This document shows, in pieces, positions 1 to 36,306 of a stretch of DNA of 64,000 nucleotides (position 1 is its first letter; every line of letters starts with the position of its first letter). Below the pieces are notes generated by a model that was not told the origin of the DNA, did no database searches, and was given only the letters and a program-made list of their open reading frames with translations. The stretch lies in contig CAXXMV010000001.1 of the NCBI GenBank assembly GCA_963662285.2, forward strand, positions 448,001-512,000, in the 5' to 3' direction. Both the position numbers and the translations under genes were made by a program. This DNA comes from a bacterium (lineage in GTDB: Bacteria; Hinthialibacterota; Hinthialibacteria; Hinthialibacterales; Hinthialibacteraceae).

Positions 1-461
1 TTGAGCACTTCGTCTAATACCTCATCCAAATAAGGATTCCACCACCACTCACCCGGTCGACAAAAAGGAGAAATCAGGATAAAGGGAAAACCTTCTTCCC
101 CAAAAAGAGATGTCGATAACGCTTCATCTTCAACAATCCCAGGGAGTAAGCCAGTAGCATTTCTCAGTACATCTGCATCATCCACTCCTGTTTCAACATA
201 TCCATGAAGAAACATTAGCAGAGGCCACTTTTTATCTGTTTGCCCGTACTCTTTAGGTAAATATAGCAAATAATCATATTCAAATCCCGAACTCATCTTG
301 ATTTGTTTACCGGCTTCTTGCGCATCACAGATAGTGCAAGGAAAGCATAAAAAGGTAAACAAGATAGTAAGAAGCCACATTCTATTATTAACGCTATTTT
401 TCATTAATTGATTATCATTGAAGAGACGATACGAACATTTGAATAACAATTGATTATGCAT
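1..461 (-). CDS. Alpha/beta-hydrolase (phospholipase/carboxylesterase or predicted peptidase family), runs off the window edge
   Basis: Not in the ORF track; translated by hand from ATG at 461 (GAGG upstream): MHNQ...YDYLLYLPKEY...KWPLLMFLHG...FPFILISPFC..., open to position 1. Confidence 0.75.
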   Translation of the reverse strand, partial: MHNQLLFKCSYRLFNDNQLMKNSVNNRMWLLTILFTFLCFPCTICDAQEAGKQIKMSSGFEYDYLLYLPKEYGQTDKKWPLLMFLHGYVETGVDDADVLRNATGLLPGIVEDEALSTSLFGEEGFPFILISPFCRPGEWWWNPYLDEVLDEVL

Positions 462-23100: not shown

Positions 23101-23999
23101 CAACTGCCACTGGTTTTTTGAGATTTCACCACAAGAAGATTCTTGCCTTTACGGACAGGGATGGACGCAGTATGCAATTTGGCTGTATCCAAAAGAAGAT
23201 AAGTCTTCTCCATAATGGGCTGCCCATTAAACCAAATCTGGAAATCGGCGGGTGATTGAATAGTGAGCCATGCTTCTGCATCTGTTTGGGATTCGAAAGC
23301 GTTGAAAGCATACGCGATACCAGTATCGGGATGTATCAGGGAACTGAACTCGATCAGACCGGCCAAATCAGGATTATCGATATTTTGGACTGAAACCTTG
23401 CCGCGCCATCCTTGATATTCATCCTGCAAGCCTTTTTCTGGACCGAAAGGATTGAACAAATCCGCAGCGCCATAGCGCCCGAAAGGTCCAACCACCGCCC
23501 AATGATTCAACAGAACACCCGCTTCCTGCGCTGCTTTTTTTACATTTTCATCTAGAAGCATATCAAGCGTTTCCATCCATTCATGGGCTAATATCTGGCG
23601 GTGAATGAAAGAAGTTGAATTCTCGATAGCCTTTTGCAGAAGGGCGGCCCGATCACTGGCTTTCCATCCATGAAATTCCGAGTTTCCCCACATGGATAAA
23701 TATGCCGGTAAAAATTGGCTCCGGGGATAATCATTTAACAGGCGGGTAAGGATTTCAGCCATCTCCGGCGCCTGGCCTCTCGCCCAGGCGGCTAGATACA
23801 ATCCCTGAAGAGCCTCTTCGCCGGGGTTGCTTTCCAACTGTTTGGCAAATTCTGTTTGCGCCGCATCGATCTGATTCGTGATCAATGAATCCCAGGCGGA
23901 TTCCATTGATGCATTGACGCTTGCCGTAATTAGCAGTCCTAAGCAAATAAAAGTGGTGATATGAATAGAGAAGCGATTAGTCTTCATCTTTTTTTGCAT
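20187..23999 (-). CDS. Exported TPR + DUF3857 + inactive transglutaminase-like protein
   Basis: Signal peptide, WAVVGPF domain, TPRs, DUF3857 features (HQAIKIQNQEG, ARTITPDG, IEPGVILEY); no catalytic Cys motif. Confidence 0.8.
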   Translation of the reverse strand: MQKKMKTNRFSIHITTFICLGLLITASVNASMESAWDSLITNQIDAAQTEFAKQLESNPGEEALQGLYLAAWARGQAPEMAEILTRLLNDYPRSQFLPAYLSMWGNSEFHGWKASDRAALLQKAIENSTSFIHRQILAHEWMETLDMLLDENVKKAAQEAGVLLNHWAVVGPFGRYGAADLFNPFGPEKGLQDEYQGWRGKVSVQNIDNPDLAGLIEFSSLIHPDTGIAYAFNAFESQTDAEAWLTIQSPADFQIWFNGQPIMEKTYLLLDTAKLHTASIPVRKGKNLLVVKSQKTSGSWWVRSSLISKDEEKLYISSIPFQSSDFESLFLTPFEVKTSRPLECSVVSSPYPLALSESKTEAQVISEAVFLASWHLNRAEYQAARLYFEQAQKIAPDFALLHALHGDVSLQLARSRPGSKLRFYQEAETSLSKALSNDPYCISAMTELVAYYLDRAQIDQALDNFKDHLTKYPDIRKNVNEGVINYSLGILYDQKNFKEDSIKLFNQSLKDWLVSYETYNYLFDYYQGHNELDRATDIITQALDRFPAYEPFLERASRSDSKSVAITKALDYVNKAIRIHPSREQYSFLLGTILERQGKLNEAREWYSEMLKTFPDNPGLYERIAALDLLDSNKTSSLAFYEEAFQIAPRRMRPFRALRDAGGVDGFPYQKYDVQLDDVDISKADRWKTSRASVIYLLDLMVVDMHDDGTYDQYIHQAIKIQNQEGMQKWAETVIPKGGNVEIIMARTITPDGTEWDVSHVQDLSGQQSLSMYGIEPGVILEYAYIDRTGRSDPGVNYSGGGYFFGSDDDPMLLSQLTIVKPEHIPFHFDLNPDDFNPEIKRENAQVVYTWSKEMSEGLKNERFAPSLSQRVPSIQWSTCPDWLTFAERQRISIWGSEEASTEITELAQKLKTEASSKQEYITSVFNYVRSNIEETSGGSTTADTIVLGAGGGYQKLRLVRQLLNYGGIKTRIAMTVDNEQSSGYRPMPVLSYPGSIVLVIPRQEEIAQRILLDFSSRFAAAGSIDPRMNKQISLVLDETAPFFEPLNPLLWETGIIDRYFNLTLREDHSALINGHYSYENTFDRQIREALTNPEVKKRLADSQLARDLRGIKVEESDIVQLDDLTLPPRLEFHGVLPDIAKPSGERTIKVSPVLARSNASSIVSEPTRQFRMEFRSSVINDPLDVRIDFSYYLDQGAAIALPDNTLIISEFGFYSLFYTWDGNNLVIKRSFLIPEQNIEPEAYHRFVDFCRSIDQAENREIVVSLPISS

Positions 24000-24067
24000 C
24001 CTTTTTATGTTGAACGTTCTTTCAAATTAGCAATTCAGGTTTGGCTTAAGCCGCACAACGATCTCAA

Positions 24068-27000
24068 TTATTTTTTGTATGATACTTTTTCATCCTGATA
24101 ATGATCTACCAGACGGCAGAATTCCCGAAATTCAGGATAGTCTTCTTTTGATACTCTTACCGGCTTAAATACAATCTCTTCTTTGATGGTGATCTCTGCG
24201 CCATCAATTTCTGAAATACGTTCAAATTTGCCAAACGGATTATCGATGCTGCGGTTTTGGGGAAGTTCTACGTCTACATGGCCGTCAGGCAATTTGATAG
24301 TAAATATATTGGTGCGGGTCCACGGGTAATTGAGGATCAAGTCGTATTCCCTTTCAGATAATGAAGCGAATCGTTGAGACATCATATCTTTGAATATGGT
24401 CGACGGCAAAATCCAGCGGTCGCCCTGTTTGACGCTGTATTGTGGAATGGTCATTTGGTAAGCCAGCCGTTCTGAGGTTGCATAATCCTGAAGGTCAGAC
24501 AGTTCAATATTAGATGATTGAGAACCGGGATAGGTTCCAACCAGAATACGGTCAACTGTCTCTTTGGCTTTTACGGGATTTTCATAGGTGCGTCGAACTA
24601 CGGGATTATAAAGCCCCCGGAATTCAGCGATACGAAATCCTTGCGCCGTCCCATCGTTATCCAAAGTCATGGCTGTTGTATAGATAGCGCCATTTTCTTC
24701 CTTATCGGAATGAGGAATTCGCTTGAACTCGTATGCTCCACCGGGTTTCACGATCAAAGTATTGGCGCCGGCATCAACGGAAGGCAGTTCGGAGGCATCA
24801 AAGAAAGTAGCCGTGCCGTCGATCCAGTATTCCTTGCCGTCGATGTCGGGCAGATAGTAAATACAGTGGTTGAATATACCAAGTGATGGCAGATCGTAAT
24901 CAATCTCGCCTTTATTGGTCGTGCGGATAATAACCAGATTGGCTTCAATGCCAATCTCTTTTAACATGGCGACGGCCAGTGAGGCTTTATCTTTGCAATC
25001 GCCATATTGAGCATTGCAAATATCATCCACTTTATGCGGTTTATAACCGTGGATGCCGAATTCCAAACCAAGATAACGAACGTCAGTATTGACGAAAGCG
25101 TTGACGGCTCGCACCTTATCCCAATCGCTTAATTCCTGGGTTGGCGAGATTTTATACTTGATACGGTAATCAGTGAGGATGCGCGCCAAAGCGTCGTGAA
25201 TCACGGCGCCGGGTATCAGTTGGTCGCGTGACAGGTTCCAGTACCATTGGGTCATATCTTCCCAGGTTTGGAAAGTGGATACTTTGAGGTATGGAATAAT
25301 TTCTGTCACTGAAGGCATCATTGGTTCGCGTGGAATCGTAGGTAGAGAACTAAATGACCATTTCCAGATTCGTTCAGAATCGCTTTCGGTTTCCAGAGGC
25401 TTTGACGCTTCATCCAAAGAAGGCGCAACCACGGATGCCGGATAGTTAGGCGCAGTATATTTATAATAAAACTCGCGTGATTTTGGGGTAATTAATACAT
25501 AATCCATACGGACGGCAGGTTCCATGAAACCATCGCCGATATAGAAGAGGTCGCCAAAGTAATCGGCGTATATGTTTTCTCCCTTATCTTTCTTTTCATA
25601 CTCCAATTCTACTACCGAGCCTTTTTCCAAACCCTGGAATTGCAGAACCGCGACATTGTAATCGCCATATAGACGATTGGCGGCGTCTCCGGCGTTGGAT
25701 GTACTTTGATGACGTGGAGCGGGAGCGTCATAAAAGGTCCCGTCCGGTTTCCAGACCCGCGCGCTAATTATCCGCACTTCCTCACTATCGCCTTCATAGT
25801 ACACTCCGCGCACCTGTTGATAACGGACTCCGGTTTCGGTGAGAATCTTGATCGCTTCGCGAACCGTTTCGCTGGAGTTCCCGTTGGCGTGCACCCTGAC
25901 AATGCGCTGATGCAGCAGCACCAGGTAATTGGCTTTCGACAGGTCCTGATCTTCCGGTTGCTGGATAGTTTTCCAGTCGACCAGGAAGGGTGAGGCATAG
26001 GTTTCTTCATTGGGCTGCAAGAACTCCATATAGTCCAGACACCACGGATCGGAGGGACGCGTAATTAAAGCTAGGCGCAATTCATTGAGCGCGTTGGCGT
26101 CATCTCCCATCTGATGATAGAGAACGGCAGATAGCCGATGCGCGTCAAACATATCGGGCGAAATTGCTAAAACTTTTTTAAGAGTCAGCAGTGCGCCTTC
26201 AAAATCATCTTTGCCTTGTTGGCGTAAAGCCGCCTGGATAAATCCCTCGGTTGAGAAAGGATTAAGCCATTGTTCGCGTTTTAATAAATCCTGCACGGCT
26301 TCTTCATCATTATTGCGCAAAGCGATGTCGCGCAGTTGCCGCACGGCGTCATATTCAAAAGGGAAATCTTCCAAAATCGATTGCAATGCGATTTGTTTGT
26401 CGGACTCAGTCATCCGGGAAGATTCCATTGAAAAAAGAAACATGCTTGCTTTGGCGCCTAAATCTTCATCACCCTGCTTCAGCAGGTCAATAGCGGCTTC
26501 CCGCAATCCTTTGCCATTAAGGATATGGGCTTGTTCTAACAGAGCAGATTGCGGTAGTTCGCGTTCTTTTTTCCAATCACGTATCAGATCAAGCCCCTTA
26601 ACGGCGTATGGTGAATTGCTGTAATTTCTTAACAGGCCAAGAAAAGCGGCTTGATCGCCTGGATCGATATCCAACGCTTTTTTATAAGCCAGCCGTTTGC
26701 GATTGCCCATTGTCTCCGAGTCGCCCTGCTCCCGCCATAAGAGAGGATTATCGGGATATTGAGTAGTCATGCTGCTTAACAATGCGTTAGCGCTGGTATC
26801 ATTTTCATCCGCGACATGCCAGCGTTGCAGCAATTGAGAGAAAAATAGTTTTTGATGAGGACTGGCGTCGGGTGATTCCGCCATAGCCCTGAGCTGTTGA
26901 ATAGGCGCCGGATCAAAATTGATTACTTGGGGCGCCTCGTTTTCGCTAACTGGCGTATGACCTGTAATATCAGGTGTATCTTGATTCACTGAAGGGGCAG

Positions 27001-27973
27001 AAACCGAAATTGAATCAGCGTTATCTGTCGCGATGCGCAGGTAAACGCCGTATTTATCTTTTTCTCCCGATGAGACTTTGAGCAGCACGGTGTTGGCGCC
27101 TGCATTGAGATGAGTCTCTATATAAACCTGATCGGGAACCGGGCGGTGGTATCGATCAGCGTTGACTAGTAGTTTTCCATTCAACCATGCTTTCAATGCG
27201 CCGCCGTGTCCGATGTAAATCTTGCAGTTCTGCGCAACGGACGATTGAACCACTGTGGTAAGATAGGTGGTTGATTCGTTGGATGGATCAACTATGGAAT
27301 GAAGGTTGATGTAGCCGTTATAAGGTTCAACAGGAACGGGACGCCATCCGATGGTCTGTCGGCGTCCTTCATAGGTAGCGGTTAGATCAAGATTCTGCTC
27401 TGGACCAAAGGCGCGTTCGTGGCCGCCTTCTTCTGCGTTGTCAAATGGTCCACAATACCAAAAACCAGTTATATAACCGGATTCAGCATAAGCCTGCGCC
27501 GATTCATCCCACCGCCCCAAACGTTTGAGCAAAAGCGCCCGGTTGCTTTTAAGCAGAGAAACAAAACGCTCGGATAGACCATCACGTTGCAATACTTTAT
27601 CGAAACAGGCCAAAGATTTCTGGAAATCCTCTTTGGAATCCAACTCTTTCAATATCTCGAATAAAAAGAGATATGCTTCCGGTTGATCATCAGCTGATTG
27701 AAATGCTTCCAGCCAATGATCCAAGGCGGCTTTATCTCCAGAAGGTCTGCTGGAGGACAAAAGCGCCAAACCGGCATGAGCCAGCGCGTCTTTAGGATTA
27801 TTGGCAATTGTTTCTTCAAACGCCTTTATCGCCTGGTCAATATCTCCATGCGCAATAAACGACGTCCAGACGTCTTCTCCGTCTGCCATGACCAAAGGCG
27901 TAGCAGCCATCAAGCATACGATTCCGATTAAACTCGCAAATACGATTCTAGAATGCAGGGATAAATTTTTCAT
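24068..27973 (-). CDS. Exported TPR + DUF3857 + transglutaminase-like protease
   Basis: Signal peptide, WYCGPF domain, TPRs, VRYLGLEFGIHGYKP, GDCKDKA, FNHCI, WIDGT (Cys-His-Asp triad). Confidence 0.88.
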   Translation of the reverse strand: MKNLSLHSRIVFASLIGIVCLMAATPLVMADGEDVWTSFIAHGDIDQAIKAFEETIANNPKDALAHAGLALLSSSRPSGDKAALDHWLEAFQSADDQPEAYLFLFEILKELDSKEDFQKSLACFDKVLQRDGLSERFVSLLKSNRALLLKRLGRWDESAQAYAESGYITGFWYCGPFDNAEEGGHERAFGPEQNLDLTATYEGRRQTIGWRPVPVEPYNGYINLHSIVDPSNESTTYLTTVVQSSVAQNCKIYIGHGGALKAWLNGKLLVNADRYHRPVPDQVYIETHLNAGANTVLLKVSSGEKDKYGVYLRIATDNADSISVSAPSVNQDTPDITGHTPVSENEAPQVINFDPAPIQQLRAMAESPDASPHQKLFFSQLLQRWHVADENDTSANALLSSMTTQYPDNPLLWREQGDSETMGNRKRLAYKKALDIDPGDQAAFLGLLRNYSNSPYAVKGLDLIRDWKKERELPQSALLEQAHILNGKGLREAAIDLLKQGDEDLGAKASMFLFSMESSRMTESDKQIALQSILEDFPFEYDAVRQLRDIALRNNDEEAVQDLLKREQWLNPFSTEGFIQAALRQQGKDDFEGALLTLKKVLAISPDMFDAHRLSAVLYHQMGDDANALNELRLALITRPSDPWCLDYMEFLQPNEETYASPFLVDWKTIQQPEDQDLSKANYLVLLHQRIVRVHANGNSSETVREAIKILTETGVRYQQVRGVYYEGDSEEVRIISARVWKPDGTFYDAPAPRHQSTSNAGDAANRLYGDYNVAVLQFQGLEKGSVVELEYEKKDKGENIYADYFGDLFYIGDGFMEPAVRMDYVLITPKSREFYYKYTAPNYPASVVAPSLDEASKPLETESDSERIWKWSFSSLPTIPREPMMPSVTEIIPYLKVSTFQTWEDMTQWYWNLSRDQLIPGAVIHDALARILTDYRIKYKISPTQELSDWDKVRAVNAFVNTDVRYLGLEFGIHGYKPHKVDDICNAQYGDCKDKASLAVAMLKEIGIEANLVIIRTTNKGEIDYDLPSLGIFNHCIYYLPDIDGKEYWIDGTATFFDASELPSVDAGANTLIVKPGGAYEFKRIPHSDKEENGAIYTTAMTLDNDGTAQGFRIAEFRGLYNPVVRRTYENPVKAKETVDRILVGTYPGSQSSNIELSDLQDYATSERLAYQMTIPQYSVKQGDRWILPSTIFKDMMSQRFASLSEREYDLILNYPWTRTNIFTIKLPDGHVDVELPQNRSIDNPFGKFERISEIDGAEITIKEEIVFKPVRVSKEDYPEFREFCRLVDHYQDEKVSYKK

Positions 27974-28246
27974 GATTTGTCCGTTTCAGGTTTTTTAATA
28001 CGATTTCCCAAAAAATCAAAACTACCAAAATCTTAACTATAGATAATCAATATGTATACGTTTATAAGGATACATAGGTCACGAAGTGAATGCGAGGGTA
28101 AATATCACAGTTCTTTTATAATCCTCCTAATTGTCAATCTTTTACTATTTGTATTAGTTAAATTGTCAACTTGAACGATATTAATGTATAGAAAGCATAA
28201 TCAATATAAAAAATCATCGATAAATCATGAAAAGTTAGGTATTTGC

Positions 28247-28275
28247 TTGAGCAGTGCGGATTGAACGTGTAATAT
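28247..28275 (+). promoter_or_regulatory. Possible sigma70-type promoter of the sigma-factor gene
   Basis: TTGAGC-17 nt-TAATAT; would favour a start at ATG 28373 rather than 28277. Confidence 0.35.
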
Positions 28276-28276
28276 T

Positions 28277-29974
28277 ATGAATAATAAGTTCAAACATAAT
28301 CTAAAACGAGTCGAGTTACGTAAAGTCCTTATTATTTACGGTCTTGGCAGACAGATATCGCACCAATCCACTATGAAAAGCATACGAGATTTTTTACATA
28401 GCATCGCCTCAAGCGGCTCATCCTTTAAACGGGAAGAGACAGTAACCGCTCTCTCTCAATCTCTATCGAATCTATTACGCGAGCAGCCCTGGTTTCCCAC
28501 TCATGATGACAACTGGATCGCTGACATCGCAGAAAAAGCTTCTATACAGATTTTAGATAAACTGATTGATTTAAATACCCGGAAATTGGATGCATCTACT
28601 ATCGAAAAAAGCGTATCGGATATTTCGTCCAATTTGCTGCAAGCCATATTTTATACATCTGATGTGATCCGTATGATTTATTCTGATCATCCAGCGGAGT
28701 TTGACGCGCTGGTAAACCAGGGAGTGGAAGAACATTACCATTTAATCCGTCGCGCCGCATCACATGCGGTCAGGCGGCATTCACCGGGAATGAAGCGCGT
28801 CTCAATCGATCCCACCGATTTAGAGGAAGAGTTATGGGGCGTTATGTTAGAAGAATTAGTACGCTGTATGAGCGATTCTCACGCCCGCGTGTGGCGAAAC
28901 GGTGAATCTCAAGCCTTGGTCTTTCCTGAAGAAGGAACGCGCGGCAGCCGCCGGGGCATTATCATGCGCGTCGCTTTGTCGCAAGACGGGTCGCGCATAG
29001 CCGCCATCCGCTCTGATCGGCTCATTTTTGTGTGGGATATTGCGCAAAAGACGCTGATTCGCTCGTGGGATATCGATATTCCGGGTTTTATGGAAAAAAA
29101 TGAAATACGCGAAAGATTATATTTCTCTAATTCTGGCGATCGACTCGCAGTGGAATTAAACAACAACAGCGTCGCCATTCTCAAGATTGAGGAATGCAGC
29201 AATCAAATAAAATTTTTCAATCAAGCCGACCGTGATCAATTTCTCAGTGAATTCGGCAATCCCTATCTTCCTGAACGGTCGCCGGACAAACTCAACGGTT
29301 TTTCTATGACTACCCGAATGGGTCAAAAAACCTTGTTCAGGGATTATTGCAGGAACGTGTACGATTGGTGCTGCGATGAAAAGGGCGAAATACTTGCTGT
29401 CGCCAGCGAAATCGAGCGCAGCATGCCAGCGTGGATGATTGATGCGGGATTTGAACGAGCAGTTTTCCATATCGCCAAAAAGCGCCTGATCGATCTTATC
29501 CGCAAACGGACTCATACCAACTACGCTTGCTGGCAATGCGGTTCCATGAGTTCAAATATGACGGATGATCATTGCCGGAAATGCGGCATGGATTTCTCAC
29601 GCTGCCCCATTGGATGCGATTCAGGGGAGGCGTTGAATGCCTCTAACCGATGGCAATGTTCGAATTGCGGCATGGCCTCTCGTATTGCAGAGCCAGTTGT
29701 CGAAGTAGAAGTTGAAGATTGGCATGCTGATTCTAAAATTGATGGTTTTGAATGGCGCGATGCTCATGATATGGATAGAATCCTTCAGGCGCTGAAAAAA
29801 ACTTCCGTTATTTATAAGAAAATTGAAATTCCTTGCGATATGCTTGTGCAACTTAAATCCGAAGGCCGAACTAATGAAGATATTGGTCAAGAGGTTGGAA
29901 TACCCAGAGGATCAGTGGATTATGTCTGGAATCAATGCAAACAGCAAATACTTCTTTCCATTGGAGAGATTTAA
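28277..29974 (+). CDS. Atypical ECF-like sigma factor with WD40-like insertion in region 2 and double zinc ribbon before region 4
   Basis: DPTDLEEELW (sigma2 first half), FERAVFHIAKKRLIDLIRKR (sigma2 second half), EGRTNEDIGQEVGIPRGSV (sigma4 HTH), VALSQDGSRIAA..SDRLIFVWD (WD40), CWQC/CRKC/CPIGC/CSNC. Confidence 0.75.
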   Translation: MNNKFKHNLKRVELRKVLIIYGLGRQISHQSTMKSIRDFLHSIASSGSSFKREETVTALSQSLSNLLREQPWFPTHDDNWIADIAEKASIQILDKLIDLNTRKLDASTIEKSVSDISSNLLQAIFYTSDVIRMIYSDHPAEFDALVNQGVEEHYHLIRRAASHAVRRHSPGMKRVSIDPTDLEEELWGVMLEELVRCMSDSHARVWRNGESQALVFPEEGTRGSRRGIIMRVALSQDGSRIAAIRSDRLIFVWDIAQKTLIRSWDIDIPGFMEKNEIRERLYFSNSGDRLAVELNNNSVAILKIEECSNQIKFFNQADRDQFLSEFGNPYLPERSPDKLNGFSMTTRMGQKTLFRDYCRNVYDWCCDEKGEILAVASEIERSMPAWMIDAGFERAVFHIAKKRLIDLIRKRTHTNYACWQCGSMSSNMTDDHCRKCGMDFSRCPIGCDSGEALNASNRWQCSNCGMASRIAEPVVEVEVEDWHADSKIDGFEWRDAHDMDRILQALKKTSVIYKKIEIPCDMLVQLKSEGRTNEDIGQEVGIPRGSVDYVWNQCKQQILLSIGEI

Positions 29975-29989
29975 AGACAGGTTAGTATC

Positions 29990-31108
29990 ATGAACCAAAA
30001 CATGCATAATCAAAAAGAAGGTTTGAACCAAAAAGACTGGAAACTGGCCGACGAACTCATCGAGTCGATTATCCATGACAAAGATATGGAAAAACCTGAT
30101 GCGGCGCCGGGAATCAACCAGGATTCCATGCCGGATCAAGACCGCGTGAGTTTTTTCTCCGCCATTCAGCGCGATTACAAATCGGTTTACCAGAAGAACA
30201 CTATATCTCTGGTTGAGCGCTGGAGCGCGGAACATATTCAGATCAACTGGTTGGCGAAGCTTAAAAATAAACTGAATACCATTCGAGCAGCGAATAAAGA
30301 GGCTTGGGGCGAACTACAGGCCTATTTCGAAGCATTGCAATCCACCGTTGACGTATTATCCACCCGGATGATACCCGCTCCGGTTCATCGCAGCGCCGTC
30401 GCCTCACAGCAGGAACTATATCAGCCGCGGCGCCGCGCCATTGAGCCAGCCGATCTGCCTGCGTTTTCTCCATTATTCTGCACCGCCATCGATCCAGATG
30501 CTGAACCATTCGTAATTTCGGGACTGGCGCCGGAAGTTGAACATCGGTTGACCCTGGTTTGCGTACAAAAACCATCGGTCAAGCACGAAGAAACCATCAG
30601 CGCTTCCAGCAATGGAACGGTTCAAATCGATTTGGCAAAAACCATGATGACGCTTCAAGATGAACAGGGCGAATTTTGCGAATTCACATGGTTCCTGACC
30701 GAAACATCCGGCAATGACGCATGGGCTTCCGGTCTGGTATGGCTGGAATCCAAGGCAACCCGCCGACTGGCCAACGACGCCGTACGCATCTTAATGGAAA
30801 ACGATAATAAAGAGAGCGAAGATACTTGCATCGACTCACTTTTCGAGATCAATCTGTTGGCCACGCGGGAGTCTTATATGGAAGCATACGAACAGACTCG
30901 ACAGGGCTTGCTATTTATGCCGCGTCAAAACCGTGAAGAGAATTCGGCGCCTTTCAAGGAATCGCTCTGGTTATTCCTCAACCACCTGATTGATAAGATT
31001 GTGGACCGGATGGAGAAAGCGGAGCCAGTATTCAAATCGATCAAACCAGACTGGAACGCGGTCAACTCGCTCAAAACTCTTAAAGAACGTTTGACTGAGT
31101 GGGAATAG
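29990..31108 (+). CDS. Putative anti-sigma / protease substrate protein with C-terminal DUF928-like beta domain and helical tail
   Basis: Starts 15 nt after the sigma gene; helical N-terminus, PAPVHRS linker, FSP...FTWFL...GLVWL pattern; family assignment is by eye. Confidence 0.5.
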   Translation: MNQNMHNQKEGLNQKDWKLADELIESIIHDKDMEKPDAAPGINQDSMPDQDRVSFFSAIQRDYKSVYQKNTISLVERWSAEHIQINWLAKLKNKLNTIRAANKEAWGELQAYFEALQSTVDVLSTRMIPAPVHRSAVASQQELYQPRRRAIEPADLPAFSPLFCTAIDPDAEPFVISGLAPEVEHRLTLVCVQKPSVKHEETISASSNGTVQIDLAKTMMTLQDEQGEFCEFTWFLTETSGNDAWASGLVWLESKATRRLANDAVRILMENDNKESEDTCIDSLFEINLLATRESYMEAYEQTRQGLLFMPRQNREENSAPFKESLWLFLNHLIDKIVDRMEKAEPVFKSIKPDWNAVNSLKTLKERLTEWE

Positions 31109-31124
31109 ATGAGAACAGATAAAT

Positions 31125-33893
31125 TCAGGGATGAATCCGTTCGGTGAACATCTGGTTATTCTCTTTGGTTTTAATGATTTCCTGATCAATCTCTTCAGCC
31201 AGTTTGTCGATGGAGTTGCGCACTTCCTTGGCGCGGGGGCTGCGCAGGAAAAAGGCGCGCCATTGCGCTTCGCGGATATGTGAAGCAGCACTCTCTAAGC
31301 GGACAAGGTCGCCATTGCTTATTTTAGACAGATGCATCTCAACCCGCGCCAGGGTATCCCGGTAAGCGAAATTGCGGTCAGCTTTTTCTACCGCCTTTTC
31401 CGCCAAAGGCAAGGCGCTCATAAAATGTGACCACCTGATTTCATCATTGTCATCACATATAGCGAACATTAATTCGACCATAGCGGATATATTGCAAAAA
31501 TAATCCTTGAAATGCACTTCAGGATTAATCTTTTCGCTATCAGATATATGCATCTGACAAATCATTAAATCCTCTTTCATGCTTTCCCGGTCATTGCGCA
31601 GCATTGAGCGATATAGCACATAGTCGGCGTAAACCATATTAAGCAGCCAATCATCTTTGGCCACGTCTTTGATACTGTCAGGGATTTCCTGAATAGCGCG
31701 TTGCCGAAGCGCCCGCTCTATGATTTTCTCGACATGTGGATCGAAATCCCTGCTTGGAATCGAATCTTTCCTATCGAGCAGCGCGGATTGAATGATATGC
31801 GATTCAAAGCGCACCGATGCTTCCAGCAGGTAATAGCAGAAAACCACGAACACCGCTCCTCCTAGCAAAGGCAGCAACTTACGCCAGGAAAGATGCGTGG
31901 TTTTACCGCTTTTTTGAAGCGCCCGCCAGGAGGTTTCTTTCATTATCTTGGTGATAGCGAACGAATAGGCGGTAATATTGAGCAGGATAAGCCCCACCCA
32001 TCCGCCCACCCGGTATACTTTTAATGTGGAGCCATAGATGGCATCAGCGGCATAGCTGAACGCCATAATCAGCAAGACGAAGAAAACCCAGTAGAATGTT
32101 CGATATGAATGCAGGGTCTCTTTTTTTCTGAGGCTTAACCAATTTGCCAGAAACAACGTAAAAGCCACGGTTCCACTAATTAGCAAGATGAAACTATACC
32201 AAAAAGTTTCTATGGAAATATCTGTGATTGATGCAAATGGCGTAATCTGGGCGGTTAATAAATCGAGCCGCGCAAACGAATAGACAAATAACGCTCCAAA
32301 GGATAATCCTGATAAACAGTATATTGGTATAGAAATCAGACTATGCTTAATCAAAGGCAATAGAGGAATAATCCCGGTCCGTGATAACAGAAATCGATGA
32401 TTACGGAGCGTTTGAAAAGATATAAAGAGCGCCGCCGCTAAAAAGGAAAGAGGCCCTACTAAAAATACGCGAGTAATCTCACTGACAATCTCTTGATAAG
32501 TATAATGTTCGATACTTACTGATTCAGGAAAAATAAACGCCAGATTGACCAATCCCATCAAAGCGCCAAAGAGGATGGCGAACTGGAAACCGATAGAGAT
32601 ATGGTCGGTGTAATCCTGTGGATTCATCCATTGAGCGAAATGAGAATATAGTTTCTGGGCGGTGCGCTCCACGATGCCGCGACCACGAACGTTAAATGAA
32701 ATATCAGAAGGTATATAGGCGCGAAGACTACCCCAGGATGGTTTGGAACTATGCTCCAGGTTACGCAGCCGTTTACGCGCCGCTTTGCTGGCCGTGATTA
32801 GATTAGGTGGAACATGTGGAGTCTGTAGGGATTGATCGATGCAAAGCGATTGATAAAAACTATCTGCTGCATGAATCAATTTTGAATCATCGTAGATATC
32901 AGCGTGATATCCCAGGACGCACATGCCCAGATCGTGTAAACCCGATGCGAAACCGGCGGAATAGCGTCCCCGGCTGGACGAACTGCACGCATTCAAAAAA
33001 AGCATGGGCGGTAGTTTATTCGATTCTTCGGCGTCACGAACCGACATGAACATCTTTCGTAAGCGGGTAACGGAAACATAGTCTATTCGCCCATCATCAG
33101 TTTCAAAGCAAAGACAGGGTTCATCATCGTAAATTACGCCATGACCAATAAAATGGATAATATGAAAGCGGTCAGTGCCGCTTTGCATCAGGCAATCTTC
33201 CAATTCGTGGAAAGTAGTCACGCCGCAGGGATACCGCTTATGACGCTGTGGATCAACCAGGATCAAACCATGAGTTCTCTCTTGCAGCGAAAACATGGTT
33301 TTAGCTTCCTCGCATCCCAGAGGCAGCTGCGCAAGACCGACGCCGTCAGTTTTATCCTTATCCGCGAATATAAAAGGAGTTACCAGCAGTATGCGCCACG
33401 ATGAGACGTCTATGGTCTGTGGCGGACTAGGAAAAGTTTCAATGGGATGCGAACGTATAATCTGTACTGCGTATCTCCAAGTAATGAAACCTTCGCCATC
33501 ATGCAATAGTTCCCAGGGCAGGTCTTCTAATGTCAGACAGATTTCTGCATTCTGTTGGTTGGGAGTGGGAAAGTGCAGGTAAAGTATTCGATCAATTGAG
33601 TCATCCGCACGGTTGGCGAAGGTTCTGATCAGGGATGATTGCGCTTCTTTGCCTAAAAAATCATATAAACGGCGCCCCGTCTCAACTGTTTTGGCGGTAA
33701 TGTCGTGCGGCCAACCTCCATTAGCGCCGCTTGCGCCAACGCCGATAGTCAGGCCGCCGGCATCAGTAAAGCGTTTGGTGGGCCACGGTAGACGCAGTTC
33801 AACATGCTTGCCGATCTGATAATAAAAATCGACAACCAGTTCGCCCCTTTCTTCACGGGGCTCGCCAAAACTCCACCACAATCCACGCGCCAT
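31125..33893 (-). CDS. CHAT (caspase-like) protease fused to about 7 TM helices and a C-terminal TPR-like domain
   Basis: LEDLPWELL, HIIHFIGHG (catalytic His), LFLNACSS (catalytic Cys); seven hydrophobic segments; FAYRDTLARV TPR-like motif. Confidence 0.88.
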   Translation of the reverse strand: MARGLWWSFGEPREERGELVVDFYYQIGKHVELRLPWPTKRFTDAGGLTIGVGASGANGGWPHDITAKTVETGRRLYDFLGKEAQSSLIRTFANRADDSIDRILYLHFPTPNQQNAEICLTLEDLPWELLHDGEGFITWRYAVQIIRSHPIETFPSPPQTIDVSSWRILLVTPFIFADKDKTDGVGLAQLPLGCEEAKTMFSLQERTHGLILVDPQRHKRYPCGVTTFHELEDCLMQSGTDRFHIIHFIGHGVIYDDEPCLCFETDDGRIDYVSVTRLRKMFMSVRDAEESNKLPPMLFLNACSSSSRGRYSAGFASGLHDLGMCVLGYHADIYDDSKLIHAADSFYQSLCIDQSLQTPHVPPNLITASKAARKRLRNLEHSSKPSWGSLRAYIPSDISFNVRGRGIVERTAQKLYSHFAQWMNPQDYTDHISIGFQFAILFGALMGLVNLAFIFPESVSIEHYTYQEIVSEITRVFLVGPLSFLAAALFISFQTLRNHRFLLSRTGIIPLLPLIKHSLISIPIYCLSGLSFGALFVYSFARLDLLTAQITPFASITDISIETFWYSFILLISGTVAFTLFLANWLSLRKKETLHSYRTFYWVFFVLLIMAFSYAADAIYGSTLKVYRVGGWVGLILLNITAYSFAITKIMKETSWRALQKSGKTTHLSWRKLLPLLGGAVFVVFCYYLLEASVRFESHIIQSALLDRKDSIPSRDFDPHVEKIIERALRQRAIQEIPDSIKDVAKDDWLLNMVYADYVLYRSMLRNDRESMKEDLMICQMHISDSEKINPEVHFKDYFCNISAMVELMFAICDDNDEIRWSHFMSALPLAEKAVEKADRNFAYRDTLARVEMHLSKISNGDLVRLESAASHIREAQWRAFFLRSPRAKEVRNSIDKLAEEIDQEIIKTKENNQMFTERIHP

Positions 33894-34155
33894 AGATTTT
33901 TCTCAAAGATGAAGATCATTAATCGCTTCATTTTACATAGAGTTTGTCAGAAGGATAGCGTTTTGAACGGTTTGAGAGTTAATCCAGAATATTAACGAGA
34001 TTCCATTTAGTCAAATATTAGTTTTCTCAAAAATTTAAACTGGATTTAATATTATTGTCTGAGGAGAAGACAAGCATTTATTCTAGCCATATAATGATCA
34101 ATAGCGATTAAAGGAGTATGAATGATTTAATTGCCAGCAGGAAGGTATTAGGATC

Positions 34156-36306
34156 ATGAAAAACATTAATCTACAACAACGACATCAACTCGCCATCGCG
34201 TTTTTAGTGATTATCTTTACAAATTTCGCCTCAGCCGAAGCGGTTCGTGAATTCACTCCAAGCGTAGCCAGAATATCGTATCTGGAAGGTTCAGTAACCA
34301 CCCAGCGCACCGCCGATGAAGATTGGACCGATGCCGCCTTAAATCTACCCTTGATGGTCGGAGATAAAATATATACCGGCGTCAACGGGCAGGTTGAACT
34401 GGAACTGGAAGACGAGGTTGTCGTCCGTCTTGGCGGCGACACTTATATTCATTTCGCCAATTTGGAAGACAATTTGACTCGAATCGGAATATTGAAGGGA
34501 ACCATGGCGATTAATTCCAGCGCAGTCTCGTTTGCACGCGCTCCGATAGAAGTGCAAGCCAACGGTTTTATCGCCATCACCAAAGACTGGAGCAAGACTC
34601 GGTATAATATTGCTGAAAACGGCGATTCGCAAATCCTGGTGCGTAGAGGATTTATGGATGTCGTACAGGGCGATAGCGTAGAACACCTCCAGCGAGGCGA
34701 TCAAATTCGCATAACAGGTCCTGATGCCAGAGCCTTTGAAAAGATCAACCGGGAAGACGGATTTGATCAATGGTGCGACTTGCGGGACGCAATGCAGGCG
34801 GCCAGCATTAGCCGAAACCACATCAGCAGCCGCGTGGCGGGCTACAGTGATTTAGACCGTAATGGAGAATGGATCGAAATCCCGGAATATGGCACAGTAT
34901 GGCGCCCTACAATGGTTGTCAAAGAATGGGCGCCATATCGCGATGGCCGTTGGGTATGGTATGACAGCTGCGGTTGGACCTGGGTATCATATGAACCTTG
35001 GGGCTGGGCGCCATATCACTATGGCCGCTGGGTATATGTGAATAATTACCGTTGGTGCTGGACGCCTCATGCGGAAGTAGTGCATGTAGTGCATCATCGC
35101 GTGCGCCCGGTCTGGCATCCGGCGCTGGTCTCTTTCACTTACGCCAGAAAAGGCAGCTATTTCAATCTAAGCATAGGCGGAAGCCGCCGCCACTGGGATG
35201 ATCCATGCATTGGCTGGTTCGCCCTGGGGCCTCGCGATCCTTATATCCCCTGGCATAGACGGCATGACAGAGGTAATGACAGAGGTAATGGAAATAATAT
35301 CATTAACGGTCATGGCAACAGGATAGAGAACAACACATACATAACCAATAACACATATATCTACCAAAACCAGGATGCGCCTAATTCGGTGACAGTAGTT
35401 AAAGAAAATGAGTTTGCCAGCAAAACTCCTGGGACGCGCGCCATTGCGCAAATAAAACCTTCAAGAGGCAAAGAGGTTATCGTGGGCAGCGCGGCTATTC
35501 AGAGAGTTGAGCAAAATCGCATCACGCCAACCAGAGCCAAAAGAGAGACTGGATCAGCTGAAGATTATCAACTGGCGGTAAAGGCTTCGAACAATACTGC
35601 GACATCGACGCCTCGTGCAGCGCGGCCAACCAAAGACGATCAAAACCGACTTCCGGAAACTGTTGCGCCTGGTAATAGAACAACTACAACAGCGGCAAGA
35701 ACTGAACCAAGCCGCACTACTCCGGCTCGAAGCAATACGGAAACGAGACGGACGACAACTCCGACCACCGCTCCGACATCGACCCGTGAGACTCCAGAGC
35801 GGCGTAGTTTGATTCAGGATCGCCCGGTAAGCCAAAGCGCCGAGACGCAAACAACTCGTCAGACCAGCAGCCCGGCTAGAACTTCGACAGCCCGAACAAC
35901 TCAGCAGCAAACTACTCAACCTGCGCGTTCGCAAAACAGCGCTGGCATAGAACGCATCATGACGACTCATCCAGCTCGCGAGACCACTAGTCCACAGAGC
36001 AGTAGTAGTTACCAAAGACAATCTGTGACTTCGCCGACGAGGGATAGTTACAGACCGAGCGTAACTACGCCGCAGAGGGAAAGTTACAACCCAAGCAGCG
36101 TTAATGCACCTCAGCGTTCGTATTCGCCAACCAGGACGACGCCCATAACCACCAGACCTGGCGCAACTTATCAATCAAGCGCTCCTCGCACCAACCGCAC
36201 GCAGGGATATTCGGCGCCGCAGTCGACTTCGAATCAACGCAGCAGCGCGACGAGCCAGCCAAGAAGCACTAGATCCAATTCGCGCACATCGTCTAAACGC
36301 CGCTAG
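34156..36306 (+). CDS. Exported FecR-domain / DUF6600-type Trp-rich protein with low-complexity S/T/R tail
   Basis: ARISYLEGSV...LNLPLMVGDKIYTG; DLDRNGEW, YGTVWRP, WAPYRDGRWVW, WGWAPYHYGRW. Confidence 0.85.
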   Translation: MKNINLQQRHQLAIAFLVIIFTNFASAEAVREFTPSVARISYLEGSVTTQRTADEDWTDAALNLPLMVGDKIYTGVNGQVELELEDEVVVRLGGDTYIHFANLEDNLTRIGILKGTMAINSSAVSFARAPIEVQANGFIAITKDWSKTRYNIAENGDSQILVRRGFMDVVQGDSVEHLQRGDQIRITGPDARAFEKINREDGFDQWCDLRDAMQAASISRNHISSRVAGYSDLDRNGEWIEIPEYGTVWRPTMVVKEWAPYRDGRWVWYDSCGWTWVSYEPWGWAPYHYGRWVYVNNYRWCWTPHAEVVHVVHHRVRPVWHPALVSFTYARKGSYFNLSIGGSRRHWDDPCIGWFALGPRDPYIPWHRRHDRGNDRGNGNNIINGHGNRIENNTYITNNTYIYQNQDAPNSVTVVKENEFASKTPGTRAIAQIKPSRGKEVIVGSAAIQRVEQNRITPTRAKRETGSAEDYQLAVKASNNTATSTPRAARPTKDDQNRLPETVAPGNRTTTTAARTEPSRTTPARSNTETRRTTTPTTAPTSTRETPERRSLIQDRPVSQSAETQTTRQTSSPARTSTARTTQQQTTQPARSQNSAGIERIMTTHPARETTSPQSSSSYQRQSVTSPTRDSYRPSVTTPQRESYNPSSVNAPQRSYSPTRTTPITTRPGATYQSSAPRTNRTQGYSAPQSTSNQRSSATSQPRSTRSNSRTSSKRR

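What the first reader, a model, noticed from the sequence alone, without database searches (positions are those of the whole stretch)
28277..33893. Candidate new proteolytic signalling system: atypical sigma factor + putative anti-sigma + 7TM caspase-like (CHAT) receptor protease
Seen: the sigma-like gene and the 372-aa gene are 15 nt apart on +, and the CHAT gene converges on them with only 16 nt between stop codons. The CHAT His-Gly/Ala-Cys dyad is intact. Established: in type III-E CRISPR the TPR-CHAT protease Csx29 cleaves Csx30, which binds a sigma factor, and ECF sigma genes often neighbour CHAT genes. Inference: here a CRISPR-independent membrane receptor protease senses an extracytoplasmic cue through its TPR-like tail, cleaves the soluble 372-aa partner (an Arg-containing linker PAPVHRS...QPRRR is a candidate site) and releases a sigma factor carrying extra WD40 and zinc-ribbon inputs. 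I know of no described system with this domain combination.
Basis: partly seen in the sequence, partly recalled or inferred. Interest (0 to 1): 0.88.

Follow-up and report, generated by a model that had tools for sequence, protein, structure and literature searches.

The report
Odd sigma pair beside CHAT protease
An unusual sigma-factor-like gene and its predicted binding partner form a conserved pair in one uncultured bacterial family, but the membrane caspase-like protease next door belongs to a different conserved gene pair, so the proposed three-part proteolytic switch is not supported by gene order.

Summary
The spacings are 15 nt and 16 nt, and the CHAT His/Cys dyad is intact and invariant in 18 of 18 homologues.

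The locus is best read as two family-specific modules lying side by side.

- **Module A (565-aa and 372-aa genes).** They are adjacent on one strand in 16 of 16 testable loci. The 565-aa protein is a remote sigma-70/ECF relative: sigma4 by profile comparison, sigma2 by fold. A partial beta-propeller is inserted inside sigma2, and two zinc ribbons sit in the sigma2-sigma4 linker. The N-terminal helices of the 372-aa orphan are predicted to clamp sigma2 (ipSAE 0.73; best control 0.00).
- **Module B (7TM-CHAT protease).** Its conserved neighbour is the divergent FecR/DUF6600 gene, directly adjacent in 17 of 20 genomes. These are the genome's only CHAT and only DUF6600 genes.

The CHAT gene abuts the 372-aa gene in only 3 of 20 genomes; 15 lack the adjacency and 2 are undetermined. 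All three lie in one subclade.

All four genes share one phyletic pattern: the whole family, and none of 15 other genomes of the phylum. A functional link therefore stays possible but unsupported.

Verdict: a new variant of sigma/anti-sigma-like regulation, plus a separate new CHAT receptor architecture.

The parts
28246..28275 (+). Conserved 30-nt box (CTTGAG-N18-TAtnAT) ending 1 nt before the start codon of the 565-aa ORF. Its function is unresolved: promoter-like halves, or a translational or operator element.
   Evidence: The box, or a CTTGCC variant, is present in 12 of 15 upstream regions. In the 8 loci with the CTTGAG form, the ~30 codons downstream are open in frame in 8 of 8, and an in-frame ATG or GTG lies 1 nt after the box in 7 of 8. 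The box is essentially unique in the genome.
28277..29974 (+). 565-aa sigma-70/ECF-like protein (P0001). Layout: N-terminal helical extension; the sigma2 N-terminal helices; an inserted partial beta-propeller; the sigma2 region 2.3/2.4 helix; two zinc ribbons; sigma4.
28640..28870 (+). Residues ~122-198: helices that, together with residues 385-414, superpose on sigma2 domains.
   Evidence: VIA-align: 8vjl_B pro-sigmaK, Z 8.8, rmsd 2.7, 93 residues aligned, model range 122..414; 9m84_F ShbA sigma, Z 8.7, rmsd 2.9, 94 aligned, model range 124..414. Sequence support for this half is nil.
28871..29416 (+). Residues ~199-380: partial (about 3-4 blade) WD40-type beta-propeller inserted inside sigma2.
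   Evidence: AF2 strands at 203-375. WD40 chains at Z 9-11 with 87-143 residues aligned. WD40 repeat match by PDB profile search. Weak Pfam beta-propeller hits in 21 of 21 family members.
29429..29518 (+). Residues 385-414: invariant helix aligned to ECF region 2.3/2.4.
   Evidence: hhalign Q372-567 to ECF positions 30-165, probability 64.6%, E 6.3e-5. The slice alone gives 23%, E 9e-4. Invariant residues H398-K410.
29522..29674 (+). Residues ~416-466: two Cys4 zinc ribbons in the sigma2-sigma4 linker.
   Evidence: Conserved cysteines. Zn_ribbon_3 matches 14 of 21 members, best E 1.1e-4.
29744..29962 (+). Residues ~490-562: sigma4-like helix-turn-helix domain.
   Evidence: hhalign against the genome's own ECF sigmas: 83% (E 8.7e-6) and 86% (E 5.1e-6). 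Sigma70_r4_2 matches 9 of 21 members, best E 0.009. TIGR02937 matches 20 of 21 members, best E 9.5e-8.
29990..31108 (+). 372-aa orphan partner (P0002), a candidate soluble anti-sigma. It has N-terminal binding helices, a beta-sandwich (residues ~160-252) and a C-terminal TPR-like helical bundle (~275-372).
30023..30235 (+). Residues 12-82 of P0002: three helices predicted to contact sigma2, the propeller and the first zinc ribbon of P0001.
   Evidence: Interface list. The hot spots I24, I27, I28, F55, V75 and W78 coincide with conserved consensus positions.
30362..30487 (+). Residues ~125-166 of P0002: the most conserved motif of the family (RMVPAPAxR...PRRRAIEPADLPxFxPLFCTA). It lies outside the predicted interface and its function is unknown.
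   Evidence: R134, R148, R149, L156, P157, F159, L162, F163 and C164 are invariant in 16 of 16 sequences. pLDDT is 55-74 over residues 131-150.
31125..33893 (-). 922-aa protein with a cytoplasmic CHAT protease domain, seven transmembrane helices and a periplasmic helical tail (P0003).
32844..33533 (-). CHAT domain (residues 121-350) with the catalytic His251 and Cys303.
31821..32582 (-). Seven predicted transmembrane helices (residues 438-691).
   Evidence: Hydropathy and loop charges.
34080..34120 (+). Conserved motif (TTTTAGCc-N16-CGATnAT) upstream of the FecR/DUF6600 gene.
   Evidence: Found in 14 of 14 CHAT-FecR intergenic regions, with identical spacing in 13. A genome-wide PWM scan was not specific.
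34156..36306 (+). 716-aa exported FecR plus DUF6600 protein (P0005), the conserved divergent neighbour of the CHAT gene.
   Evidence: Pfam FecR E 1e-4 and DUF6600 E 1.4e-28. One N-terminal hydrophobic segment at residues 12-30. Adjacency.

Best explanation
Two separate modules, both specific to one family of an uncultured phylum, lie tail to tail here. Source records name homologues Candidatus Hinthialibacter or Omnitrophica.

Module A is a two-gene operon.
- Its first product is a highly derived sigma-70-family (ECF-like, sigma2 plus sigma4) protein.
- A partial beta-propeller has been inserted between the sigma2 helices that correspond to regions 2.2 and 2.3.
- Two zinc ribbons occupy the sigma2-sigma4 linker.
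- Its second product is a soluble orphan protein. Its three N-terminal helices clamp the sigma2 helices and the propeller.
- It most likely holds the sigma inactive, as an anti-sigma does. Its beta-sandwich and TPR-like C-terminal domains, or its conserved Arg-rich motif, would receive an input that is still unknown.

Module B is a membrane receptor protease.
- It has a cytoplasmic CHAT domain, seven TM helices and a periplasmic helical tail.
- It is paired with a divergently transcribed exported FecR/DUF6600 protein. That protein is the likeliest periplasmic partner or ligand sensor.

Shown: gene order, conservation, domain homologies and the intact dyad. Inferred: sigma activity, the inhibitory sense of the partner, the topology, and any signal flow. 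The adjacency of A and B in this genome is a lineage-restricted rearrangement. It is not evidence of one system.
For: Synteny of module A:
- The two genes are adjacent on the same strand in 16 of 16 loci that hold upstream DNA. 18 loci were fetched and 2 start inside the 372-aa gene.
- Intergenic gaps are 6-23 nt in 11 of 15 loci and 40-98 nt in 3; the L013 starts lie at -4 or 23 nt.
- No other conserved neighbour was found.

Phyletic range:
- P0002 is in 19 of 19 family genomes and 0 of 21 others.
- P0001 is in 19 of 19 family genomes and 0 of 15 in the rest of the phylum.

Sigma homology:
- TIGR02937 matches 20 of 21 members, best E 9.5e-8.
- hhalign for sigma4 gives 83-86%.
- hhalign for regions 2.3/2.4 plus 4 gives 64.6%, E 6.3e-5.
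- The sigma2 fold matches at Z 8.7-8.8 and spans residues 122..414 across the insertion.

Binding:
- ESMFold2 ipSAE was 0.73, 0.73 and 0.70, against a best of 3 controls of 0.00. The mark was reached by 58 of 80 solved complexes and 2 of 110 mismatched pairs.
- The runs agree in at least 69% of contacts, and partner pLDDT is at least 73. My own alignments were used, so the calibration holds only roughly.
- The interface residues are conserved on both sides.

Module B:
- CHAT and FecR/DUF6600 are directly adjacent and divergent in 17 of 20 genomes. They are 4.2 kb apart in 1, on separate contigs in 1, and FecR was not found in 1.
- The genome has exactly one CHAT gene and one DUF6600 gene.

Separation of A and B:
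- CHAT abuts the 372-aa gene in 3 of 20 genomes, not in 15, and is undetermined in 2.
- The 3 positives fall within one clade of 7 with 99/98 support, and 0 of 11 outside it are positive.
Against: - All sigma family scores are below curated cut-offs. P0001 scores 15.8 bits against 42.9 for TIGR02937, and no Sigma70_r2 hit appears at E <= 1.
- The N-terminal half of sigma2 has no sequence support: hhalign probability 0.5%.
- Its structural Z of 8.7-8.8 lies below the level at which the tool warns that helical bundles can match by chance.
- No anti-sigma domain family or fold was found for P0002.
- The complex model is a prediction. It used unpaired alignments of my own.
- The most conserved motif of P0002 is not explained by the predicted interface.
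- All four genes have the same phyletic pattern, and the same four-gene order recurs in 2 genera and three of its four genes in a third (G014). A functional link between A and B is therefore not excluded.
Confidence: 0.55

Rival explanations
1. The first reader's system, extended by the FecR/DUF6600 gene. The exported FecR/DUF6600 protein or an outside cue acts on the periplasmic tail of the 7TM-CHAT protein. That switches on the cytoplasmic CHAT domain, which cleaves the 372-aa anti-sigma-like protein, for instance at the conserved Arg-rich motif, and releases the sigma.
For: - The CHAT domain is predicted to be cytoplasmic, so it could reach a soluble substrate.
- The dyad is intact and invariant.
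- P0002 has a conserved, partly flexible motif with invariant Arg residues outside the sigma interface.
- All four genes share the same phyletic range.
- The same four-gene order is kept in 2 genera, and three of the four genes in a third, where FecR was not found.
- There are precedents in print. Csx29 cleaves Csx30, whose N-terminal domain binds CASP-sigma (PMC10028731, passages read). CalpL/CalpT/CalpS and SAVED-CHAT/PCaspase/PCc-sigma are further examples (bioRxiv 10.1101/2023.06.23.546230, passages read).
Against: - The CHAT gene is not next to the pair in 15 of 20 genomes. In G012 it lies 195 kb away on the same contig.
- Adjacency is confined to one subclade.
- The genes converge, so they cannot be co-transcribed.
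- No shared promoter motif was found.
- An identical phyletic range within one family is weak evidence, because many family-specific genes would share it.
Confidence: 0.12
2. The 565-aa protein is no longer an initiation factor. It is a DNA-binding regulator or scaffold that kept a sigma4-type helix-turn-helix and a remnant of sigma2. The 372-aa protein is its cofactor.
For: - Only sigma4 has solid sequence support.
- The sigma2 half is interrupted by about 180 residues and scores below family cut-offs.
- The long N-terminal extension, the propeller and the zinc ribbons suggest other interactions.
Against: - The region 2.3/2.4 helix is invariant across the family and aligns to ECF sigmas.
- The model superposes on whole sigma2 domains, with 93-94 of 113-116 residues aligned.
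- TIGR02937 aligns across both domains in 20 of 21 members.
Confidence: 0.15
3. The 372-aa protein is a positive partner, a co-sigma or pro-sigma needed for activity, rather than an inhibitor.
For: - It shows strict co-occurrence and co-transcription with the sigma-like gene.
- It has no recognisable anti-sigma domain.
- The interface includes the inserted propeller as well as sigma2.
Against: - The predicted contacts cover the sigma2 helices that correspond to regions 2.1/2.2 and 2.3/2.4. By general knowledge of sigma factors these are the surfaces used for core binding and -10 recognition, so occlusion is the simpler reading. This step is inferred, not tested.
Confidence: 0.1

Closest known systems
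Type III-E CRISPR Csx29 (TPR-CHAT) / Csx30 / CASP-sigma (PMC10028731, passages read)
   Same: A CHAT protease and an ECF-like sigma occur with a soluble partner. The partner's N-terminal part binds the sigma, and a C-terminal domain is available for something else.
   Different: - There is no conserved linkage of the CHAT gene to the pair (3 of 20 genomes).
- The CHAT protein is a 7TM membrane protein, not a Cas7-11-bound soluble TPR-CHAT.
- P0002 shows no sequence or Foldseek match to any solved chain at the thresholds used.
- PADLOC gives no hit.
[quoted passage not shown]
   Same: A CHAT domain on a membrane protein in an ECF-sigma signalling context. The His-Cys dyad is conserved.
   Different: - DdvA is single-pass, with a cytoplasmic zinc anti-sigma domain and a periplasmic CHAT domain.
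- Here CHAT is N-terminal and predicted cytoplasmic, followed by 7 TM helices.
- No anti-sigma domain was found in it.
- The distribution table of that paper (table S7) is a supplement that I could not see.
ECF57-type sigma factors with WD40-like repeats in a C-terminal extension (review PMC8999054, passage read)
   Same: A sigma2/sigma4 protein combined with WD40-type repeats. The atlas search pointed to Sigma70_r2 + r4 + WD40 clusters at 0.76-0.77, which is a lead only.
   Different: - Here the propeller is partial and lies inside sigma2, not after sigma4.
- Two zinc ribbons fill the linker.
- There is a ~120-residue N-terminal extension.
- The family scores below ECF cut-offs.
FecR/FecI-type trans-envelope signalling (recalled general knowledge; PMC9249621 seen in a search listing only)
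   Same: A FecR-family domain on an exported or anchored protein lies beside a membrane signalling component in a genome rich in ECF sigmas. 35 of its TIGR02937 matches pass the cut-off.
   Different: - P0005 has no cytoplasmic anti-sigma or pro-sigma domain ahead of its single hydrophobic segment.
- It carries DUF6600 and a long low-complexity tail.
- Its partner gene encodes a CHAT protease, not a sigma.

Membership tests
Sigma-70 family, ECF-like (TIGR02937 / Pfam Sigma70_r2, Sigma70_r4_2) | Score above the curated family cut-off | tested here: not met
   P0001 scores 15.8 bits on TIGR02937 against a cut-off of 42.9. No Sigma70_r2 or Sigma70_r4 hit appears at E <= 1 for P0001 itself.
Sigma-70 family, ECF-like | Sigma4 domain (region 4 helix-turn-helix) | tested here: met
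   hhalign against the genome's own ECF sigmas gives 83% (E 8.7e-6) and 86% (E 5.1e-6). Sigma70_r4_2 matches 9 of 21 members. TIGR02937 matches 20 of 21 members, best E 9.5e-8.
Sigma-70 family, ECF-like | Sigma2 domain (regions 2.1-2.4) | tested here: inconclusive
   For: the region 2.3/2.4 helix aligns (slice 23%, E 9e-4). The fold matches pro-sigmaK at Z 8.8, rmsd 2.7, 93 aligned, and ShbA at Z 8.7, rmsd 2.9, 94 aligned, across residues 122..414. Against: regions 2.1/2.2 have no sequence signal, and Z is below the tool's caution level for helical bundles.
Sigma-70 family, ECF-like | Binds RNA polymerase core and directs promoter-specific initiation | not testable with these tools
   Needs biochemistry.
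Anti-sigma factor | Recognisable anti-sigma domain by sequence or fold | tested here: inconclusive
   No family hit in Pfam or NCBIfam. No PDB sequence hit of note. No Foldseek hit at E <= 0.001. VIA rows cover residues 114-372 only, so the N-terminal 12-82 was barely tested.
Anti-sigma factor | Encoded directly downstream of its sigma, same strand | tested here: met
   16 of 16 testable loci. Short intergenic gaps.
Anti-sigma factor | Binds the sigma2 and/or sigma4 surfaces of its sigma | tested here: inconclusive
   Prediction only. ipSAE is 0.73 against a best control of 0.00, with contacts to sigma2 helices 150-199 and 393-414, the propeller and the first zinc ribbon; no sigma4 contact is listed. 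The tool states that this supports binding but does not show it.
CHAT (PF12770) caspase-like cysteine protease | Domain score above the Pfam cut-off | tested here: met
   37.6 bits against 24. 39.8 bits in the genome scan.
CHAT (PF12770) caspase-like cysteine protease | Catalytic His-Cys dyad | tested here: met
   H251 and C303 are invariant in 18 of 18 sequences.
CHAT (PF12770) caspase-like cysteine protease | Proteolytic activity and a defined substrate | not testable with these tools
   Needs a cleavage assay.
Protease-controlled sigma/anti-sigma module (Csx29-Csx30-CASP-sigma type) | Conserved co-location of the protease gene with the sigma/partner genes | tested here: not met
   Adjacent in 3 of 20 family genomes, not adjacent in 15, undetermined in 2. 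The positives are confined to one subclade.
Protease-controlled sigma/anti-sigma module (Csx29-Csx30-CASP-sigma type) | Association with a CRISPR-Cas or other defence locus | tested here: inconclusive
   PADLOC gives no hit for the four proteins. The window was not scanned for CRISPR arrays or cas genes.
DdvA-type transmembrane TPR-CHAT anti-sigma | N-terminal cytoplasmic zinc anti-sigma domain, one TM helix, periplasmic TPR-CHAT | tested here: not met
   CHAT is N-terminal (residues 121-350) and is followed by 7 hydrophobic segments. The loop charges put it in the cytoplasm. No TPR or anti-sigma family was found.

The most novel reading that the evidence does not exclude
The four genes form one family-specific trans-envelope proteolytic cascade.
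- An exported FecR/DUF6600 sensor gates a seven-TM receptor.
- The receptor's cytoplasmic caspase-like CHAT domain cuts a soluble anti-sigma at its invariant Arg-rich motif.
- This frees a sigma factor that itself carries a propeller and zinc-ribbon inputs.

This would be a CRISPR-independent, membrane-receptor version of the Csx29-Csx30-sigma logic. The two gene pairs would have drifted apart in most genomes.
Probability: 0.12. Interest if true: 0.85.

Novelty: new variant of a known kind. Interest (0 to 1): 0.5.

Why it matters
If the 565-aa protein is an active sigma, it would show that sigma2 tolerates a ~180-residue folded insertion between its core-binding and promoter-melting helices. 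It would also show that a sigma can carry zinc ribbons in the linker that passes through the RNA exit channel in known ECF holoenzymes. That last point is recalled general knowledge and was not tested here. Both features would interest people who study the mechanism and evolution of transcription initiation.

The pair is single-copy and universal in a family of large-genome, uncultured bacteria. It therefore probably controls a lineage-defining trait.

The 7TM-CHAT plus FecR/DUF6600 pair is a new receptor architecture for a caspase-like protease. Its substrate is unknown.

The practical result of this check is that the attractive three-gene model rests on an adjacency that most relatives lack.

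Tried and rejected
**Searches that gave nothing**
- Foldseek of the P0001 model against PDB gave only WD40 chains. Sigma matches appeared only in the wide VIA search.
- Foldseek of the P0002 model gave nothing at E <= 0.001.
- VIA wide on P0002 gave only middling TPR-like matches (residues 275-372, best Z 9.4, then 7.9 or less) and beta-sandwich matches (160-255, Z 6.5-7.1). No anti-sigma chain was among the 50 rows.
- The PDB profile search with the CHAT alignment gave no hit at E <= 0.01.
- PADLOC gave no hit.
- The atlas gave no usable hit for P0002.
- The HMMER search of 1.84 billion representatives with the P0002 profile gave 59 hits at E <= 0.001. About 30 are family members of 86-422 aa. 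The rest are giant proteins that match only profile positions ~160-220 repeatedly, a generic beta-sandwich repeat. No distant family and no fused form was found.

**Regulon hunting**
- The box before the sigma-like gene has no convincing second copy in the genome.
- A PWM of the FecR-upstream motif gave 386 genome hits at 12 bits or more, against 345 in the reversed-sequence control. The downstream genes of the top hits were unrelated. I dropped this line.
- I first took the box at 28246-28275 for the promoter and Met33 for the true start. I withdrew this after one search showed the intervening codons open in frame in 8 of 8 loci.
- The consensus promoter/terminator scan found fewer sites than its shuffles did.

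**Expression**
- No RNA holder was listed for the stretch.

**Contig ends**
- For G001 I tested whether the contig ends of the pair and of the CHAT gene overlap. They do not, so adjacency there stays undetermined.

**Literature**
- Searches surfaced no paper describing a 7TM-CHAT protein or a sigma with a propeller inside sigma2. One search was mis-set (min_terms 1) and useless. These searches are not exhaustive.
- Supplements were closed. Table S7 of PMC11506125 (distribution of DdvA-like proteins) was not seen.

**Caps reached**
No isolated domain and no part of the CHAT protein was folded.

Full report
**Observation**

There are 15 nt between the first two genes and 16 nt between the convergent stops.

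The 922-aa protein carries a CHAT domain: PF12770, residues 121-350, E 2.2e-9, 37.6 bits against a cut-off of 24. His251 and Cys303 are invariant in 18 of 18 aligned homologues.

A hydropathy script finds seven hydrophobic peaks between residues 438 and 691. K/R-rich loops lie at 492-507, 587-602 and 652-667. This puts the CHAT domain in the cytoplasm and the last 231 residues outside.

The 'TPR-like' label for that tail was not confirmed. Scanned alone at E <= 10, it matches no TPR family.

**Where it comes from**

- The window lies in a 7.29-Mb genome in 8 contigs.
- Source records name homologues 'Candidatus Omnitrophica/Omnitrophota' and 'Candidatus Hinthialibacter antarcticus'.
- The surrounding genes are ordinary chromosomal ones, such as dnaX and polyphosphate kinase.

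**Gene order in relatives**

This is the central test, and it splits the locus in two.

*The sigma-like gene and the 372-aa gene*
- I fetched 18 loci around the 372-aa orthologues and searched them with the window's proteins.
- The 565-aa and 372-aa genes are adjacent on one strand in 16 of 16 loci that hold upstream DNA. The other two loci begin inside the 372-aa gene.
- The gaps between the two genes are 6-23 nt in 11 of 15 loci and 40-98 nt in 3; the L013 starts lie at -4 or 23 nt.
- No other neighbour is conserved.

*The CHAT gene*
- Its orthologue exists, single-copy, in 20 of 20 family genomes.
- It abuts the 372-aa gene only in G000, G004 and G014.
- In 15 genomes it is on another contig with enough flanking DNA to exclude adjacency, or 195 kb away on the same contig (G012).
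- In 2 genomes (G001, G017) contig ends leave the question open.
- On a maximum-likelihood tree of 18 CHAT orthologues, the three positive genomes all lie inside one clade of 7 (support 99/98). None of the 11 genomes outside it is positive, and at least 3 changes are needed.

*The conserved neighbour of CHAT*
- It is the divergently transcribed FecR/DUF6600 gene at 34156-36306.
- That gene is directly adjacent in 17 of 20 genomes. It is 4.2 kb away in G013, on a separate contig in G006, and not found in G014.
- The genome holds exactly one CHAT gene and exactly one DUF6600 gene, and they are these two.

**The 565-aa protein**

*Sequence evidence*
- Pfam alone gives only weak beta-propeller and zinc-ribbon hits.
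- NCBIfam gives TIGR02937 at E 0.008, far below its cut-off.
- Across the 21-member family, TIGR02937 matches 20 of 21 (best E 9.5e-8) and Sigma70_r4_2 matches 9 of 21.
- Profile-profile comparison with ECF sigmas of the same genome gives 83-86% probability for sigma4.
- It gives 64.6% (E 6.3e-5) for an alignment running from the invariant helix at residues 390-410 (ECF region 2.3/2.4) to the end.
- The N-terminal half of sigma2 has no sequence signal.

*Structural evidence*
- The AF2 model has mean pLDDT 79.9.
- It shows helices up to residue 198, a beta-rich block at 203-375, a long helix at 385-412, a poorly ordered Cys-rich stretch, and a C-terminal helical domain.
- The wide structural search is dominated by WD40 chains aligned to 199-380 (Z 9-11, 87-143 residues aligned), which fits a partial propeller of 3-4 blades.
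- The same search also lists two sigma2 domains that align across the insertion. These are pro-sigmaK (8vjl_B, Z 8.8, rmsd 2.7, 93 aligned, model 122..414) and ShbA (9m84_F, Z 8.7, rmsd 2.9, 94 aligned, model 124..414).
- Those Z values are below the level at which the tool warns that helical bundles can match by chance. I therefore count sigma2 as probable, not shown.

*Other features*
- Two Cys4 zinc ribbons (C418/421/433/436 and C443/447/461/464) are conserved.
- WD40 repeats on ECF sigmas are known as C-terminal extensions in group ECF57 (review PMC8999054, passage read). An insertion inside sigma2 did not surface in my searches.

**The 372-aa protein**

- It is an orphan. It has no Pfam or NCBIfam family, no Foldseek match at E <= 0.001 and no atlas hit.
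- In 1.84 billion representatives there are only about 30 family members of similar length, plus generic beta-sandwich repeat matches.
- Its AF2 model (pLDDT 78.9) has three low-confidence N-terminal helices, a beta-sandwich (~160-252) and a C-terminal helical bundle. The bundle resembles short TPR domains at middling Z.

*Complex prediction with the 565-aa protein*
- The three runs scored 0.73, 0.73 and 0.70. The best of 3 controls scored 0.00.
- That mark was reached by 58 of 80 solved complexes and 2 of 110 mismatched pairs.
- The runs agree in at least 69% of contacts, and the partner's pLDDT is at least 73.
- My own unpaired alignments were used, so the calibration holds only roughly.
- The contacts put residues 12-82 of the partner onto sigma2 helices 150-199 and 393-414, the propeller and the first zinc ribbon.
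- The best-defined contact residues are conserved on both sides.
- This is what an anti-sigma would do, but the inhibitory sense is inference.

*The conserved motif*
- The family's most conserved segment is residues ~125-166. R134, R148 and R149 are invariant, followed by AIEPADLPxFxPLFCTA.
- It lies outside the predicted interface and is partly flexible in the model.

**Do the two modules talk?**

*For a link*
- All four genes occur throughout the family. P0001, P0002 and P0003 are in 19 of 19 genomes and P0005 in 18 of 19.
- None occurs in the 15 other genomes of the phylum.
- The CHAT domain faces the cytoplasm, where the 372-aa protein is.
- Published systems do couple CHAT or other proteases to sigma/anti-sigma pairs. 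Examples are Csx29-Csx30-CASP-sigma (PMC10028731), DdvA-DdvS (PMC11506125), and SAVED-CHAT/PCaspase/PCc-sigma and CalpL/T/S (bioRxiv 10.1101/2023.06.23.546230). I read passages of all three.

*Against a link*
- The adjacency is lost or never existed in most genomes.
- The genes converge.
- I found no shared upstream motif.
- A shared family-wide range is weak evidence.

I put the integrated cascade at about 0.12.

**Conclusion**

What remains is a new variant of sigma/anti-sigma-like regulation with an unprecedented sigma architecture, next to a separate new CHAT receptor paired with a FecR/DUF6600 protein. Both are confined to one uncultured family.

Noticed in passing
window 28246-28275: A 30-nt box (CTTGAG-N18-TAtnAT, with CGTG before the second half) ends 1 nt before the ATG of the 565-aa ORF. 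The box, or a CTTGCC variant, recurs in 12 of 15 orthologous upstream regions. It looks like a promoter, yet the ~30 codons after it are open in frame in 8 of 8 loci with the CTTGAG form. The start codon and the role of the box are therefore unresolved.
   Followed up: partly
window 34080-34120: The motif TTTTAGCc-N16-CGATnAT lies upstream of the FecR/DUF6600 gene in 14 of 14 CHAT-FecR intergenic regions, with identical spacing in 13. It may be the promoter of an alternative sigma. A genome-wide PWM scan could not define a regulon: 386 hits against 345 in the control.
   Followed up: partly
window 30362-30487: This is the most conserved segment of the 372-aa family, with invariant R134, R148 and R149 and the motif AIEPADLPxFxPLFCTA. 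It lies outside the predicted sigma interface and is partly flexible in the model. What reads it is unknown.
   Followed up: partly
window 57522-60629 (-): A 1035-aa SIR2_2 plus TPR protein is encoded in a patch of 28.5% GC, against about 45% elsewhere. It looks like a horizontally acquired gene, possibly for defence.
   Followed up: no
window 20187-27973 (-): Two tandem paralogous genes of ~1270-1300 aa lie directly upstream of the sigma-like gene. Both encode TPR and DUF3857 domains; the second also has transglutaminase-core and DUF3858 domains.
   Followed up: no
window ~35470-36306 (+): The C-terminal ~280 residues of the FecR/DUF6600 protein are a Ser/Thr/Pro/Arg/Gln-rich low-complexity tail. 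Orthologue open frames range from 640 to 1188 aa.
   Followed up: no
genome G000, outside the window: The genome carries 35 matches above the TIGR02937 cut-off. Several lie in open frames of 487-598 aa, so they are sigma factors with long extensions.
   Followed up: no
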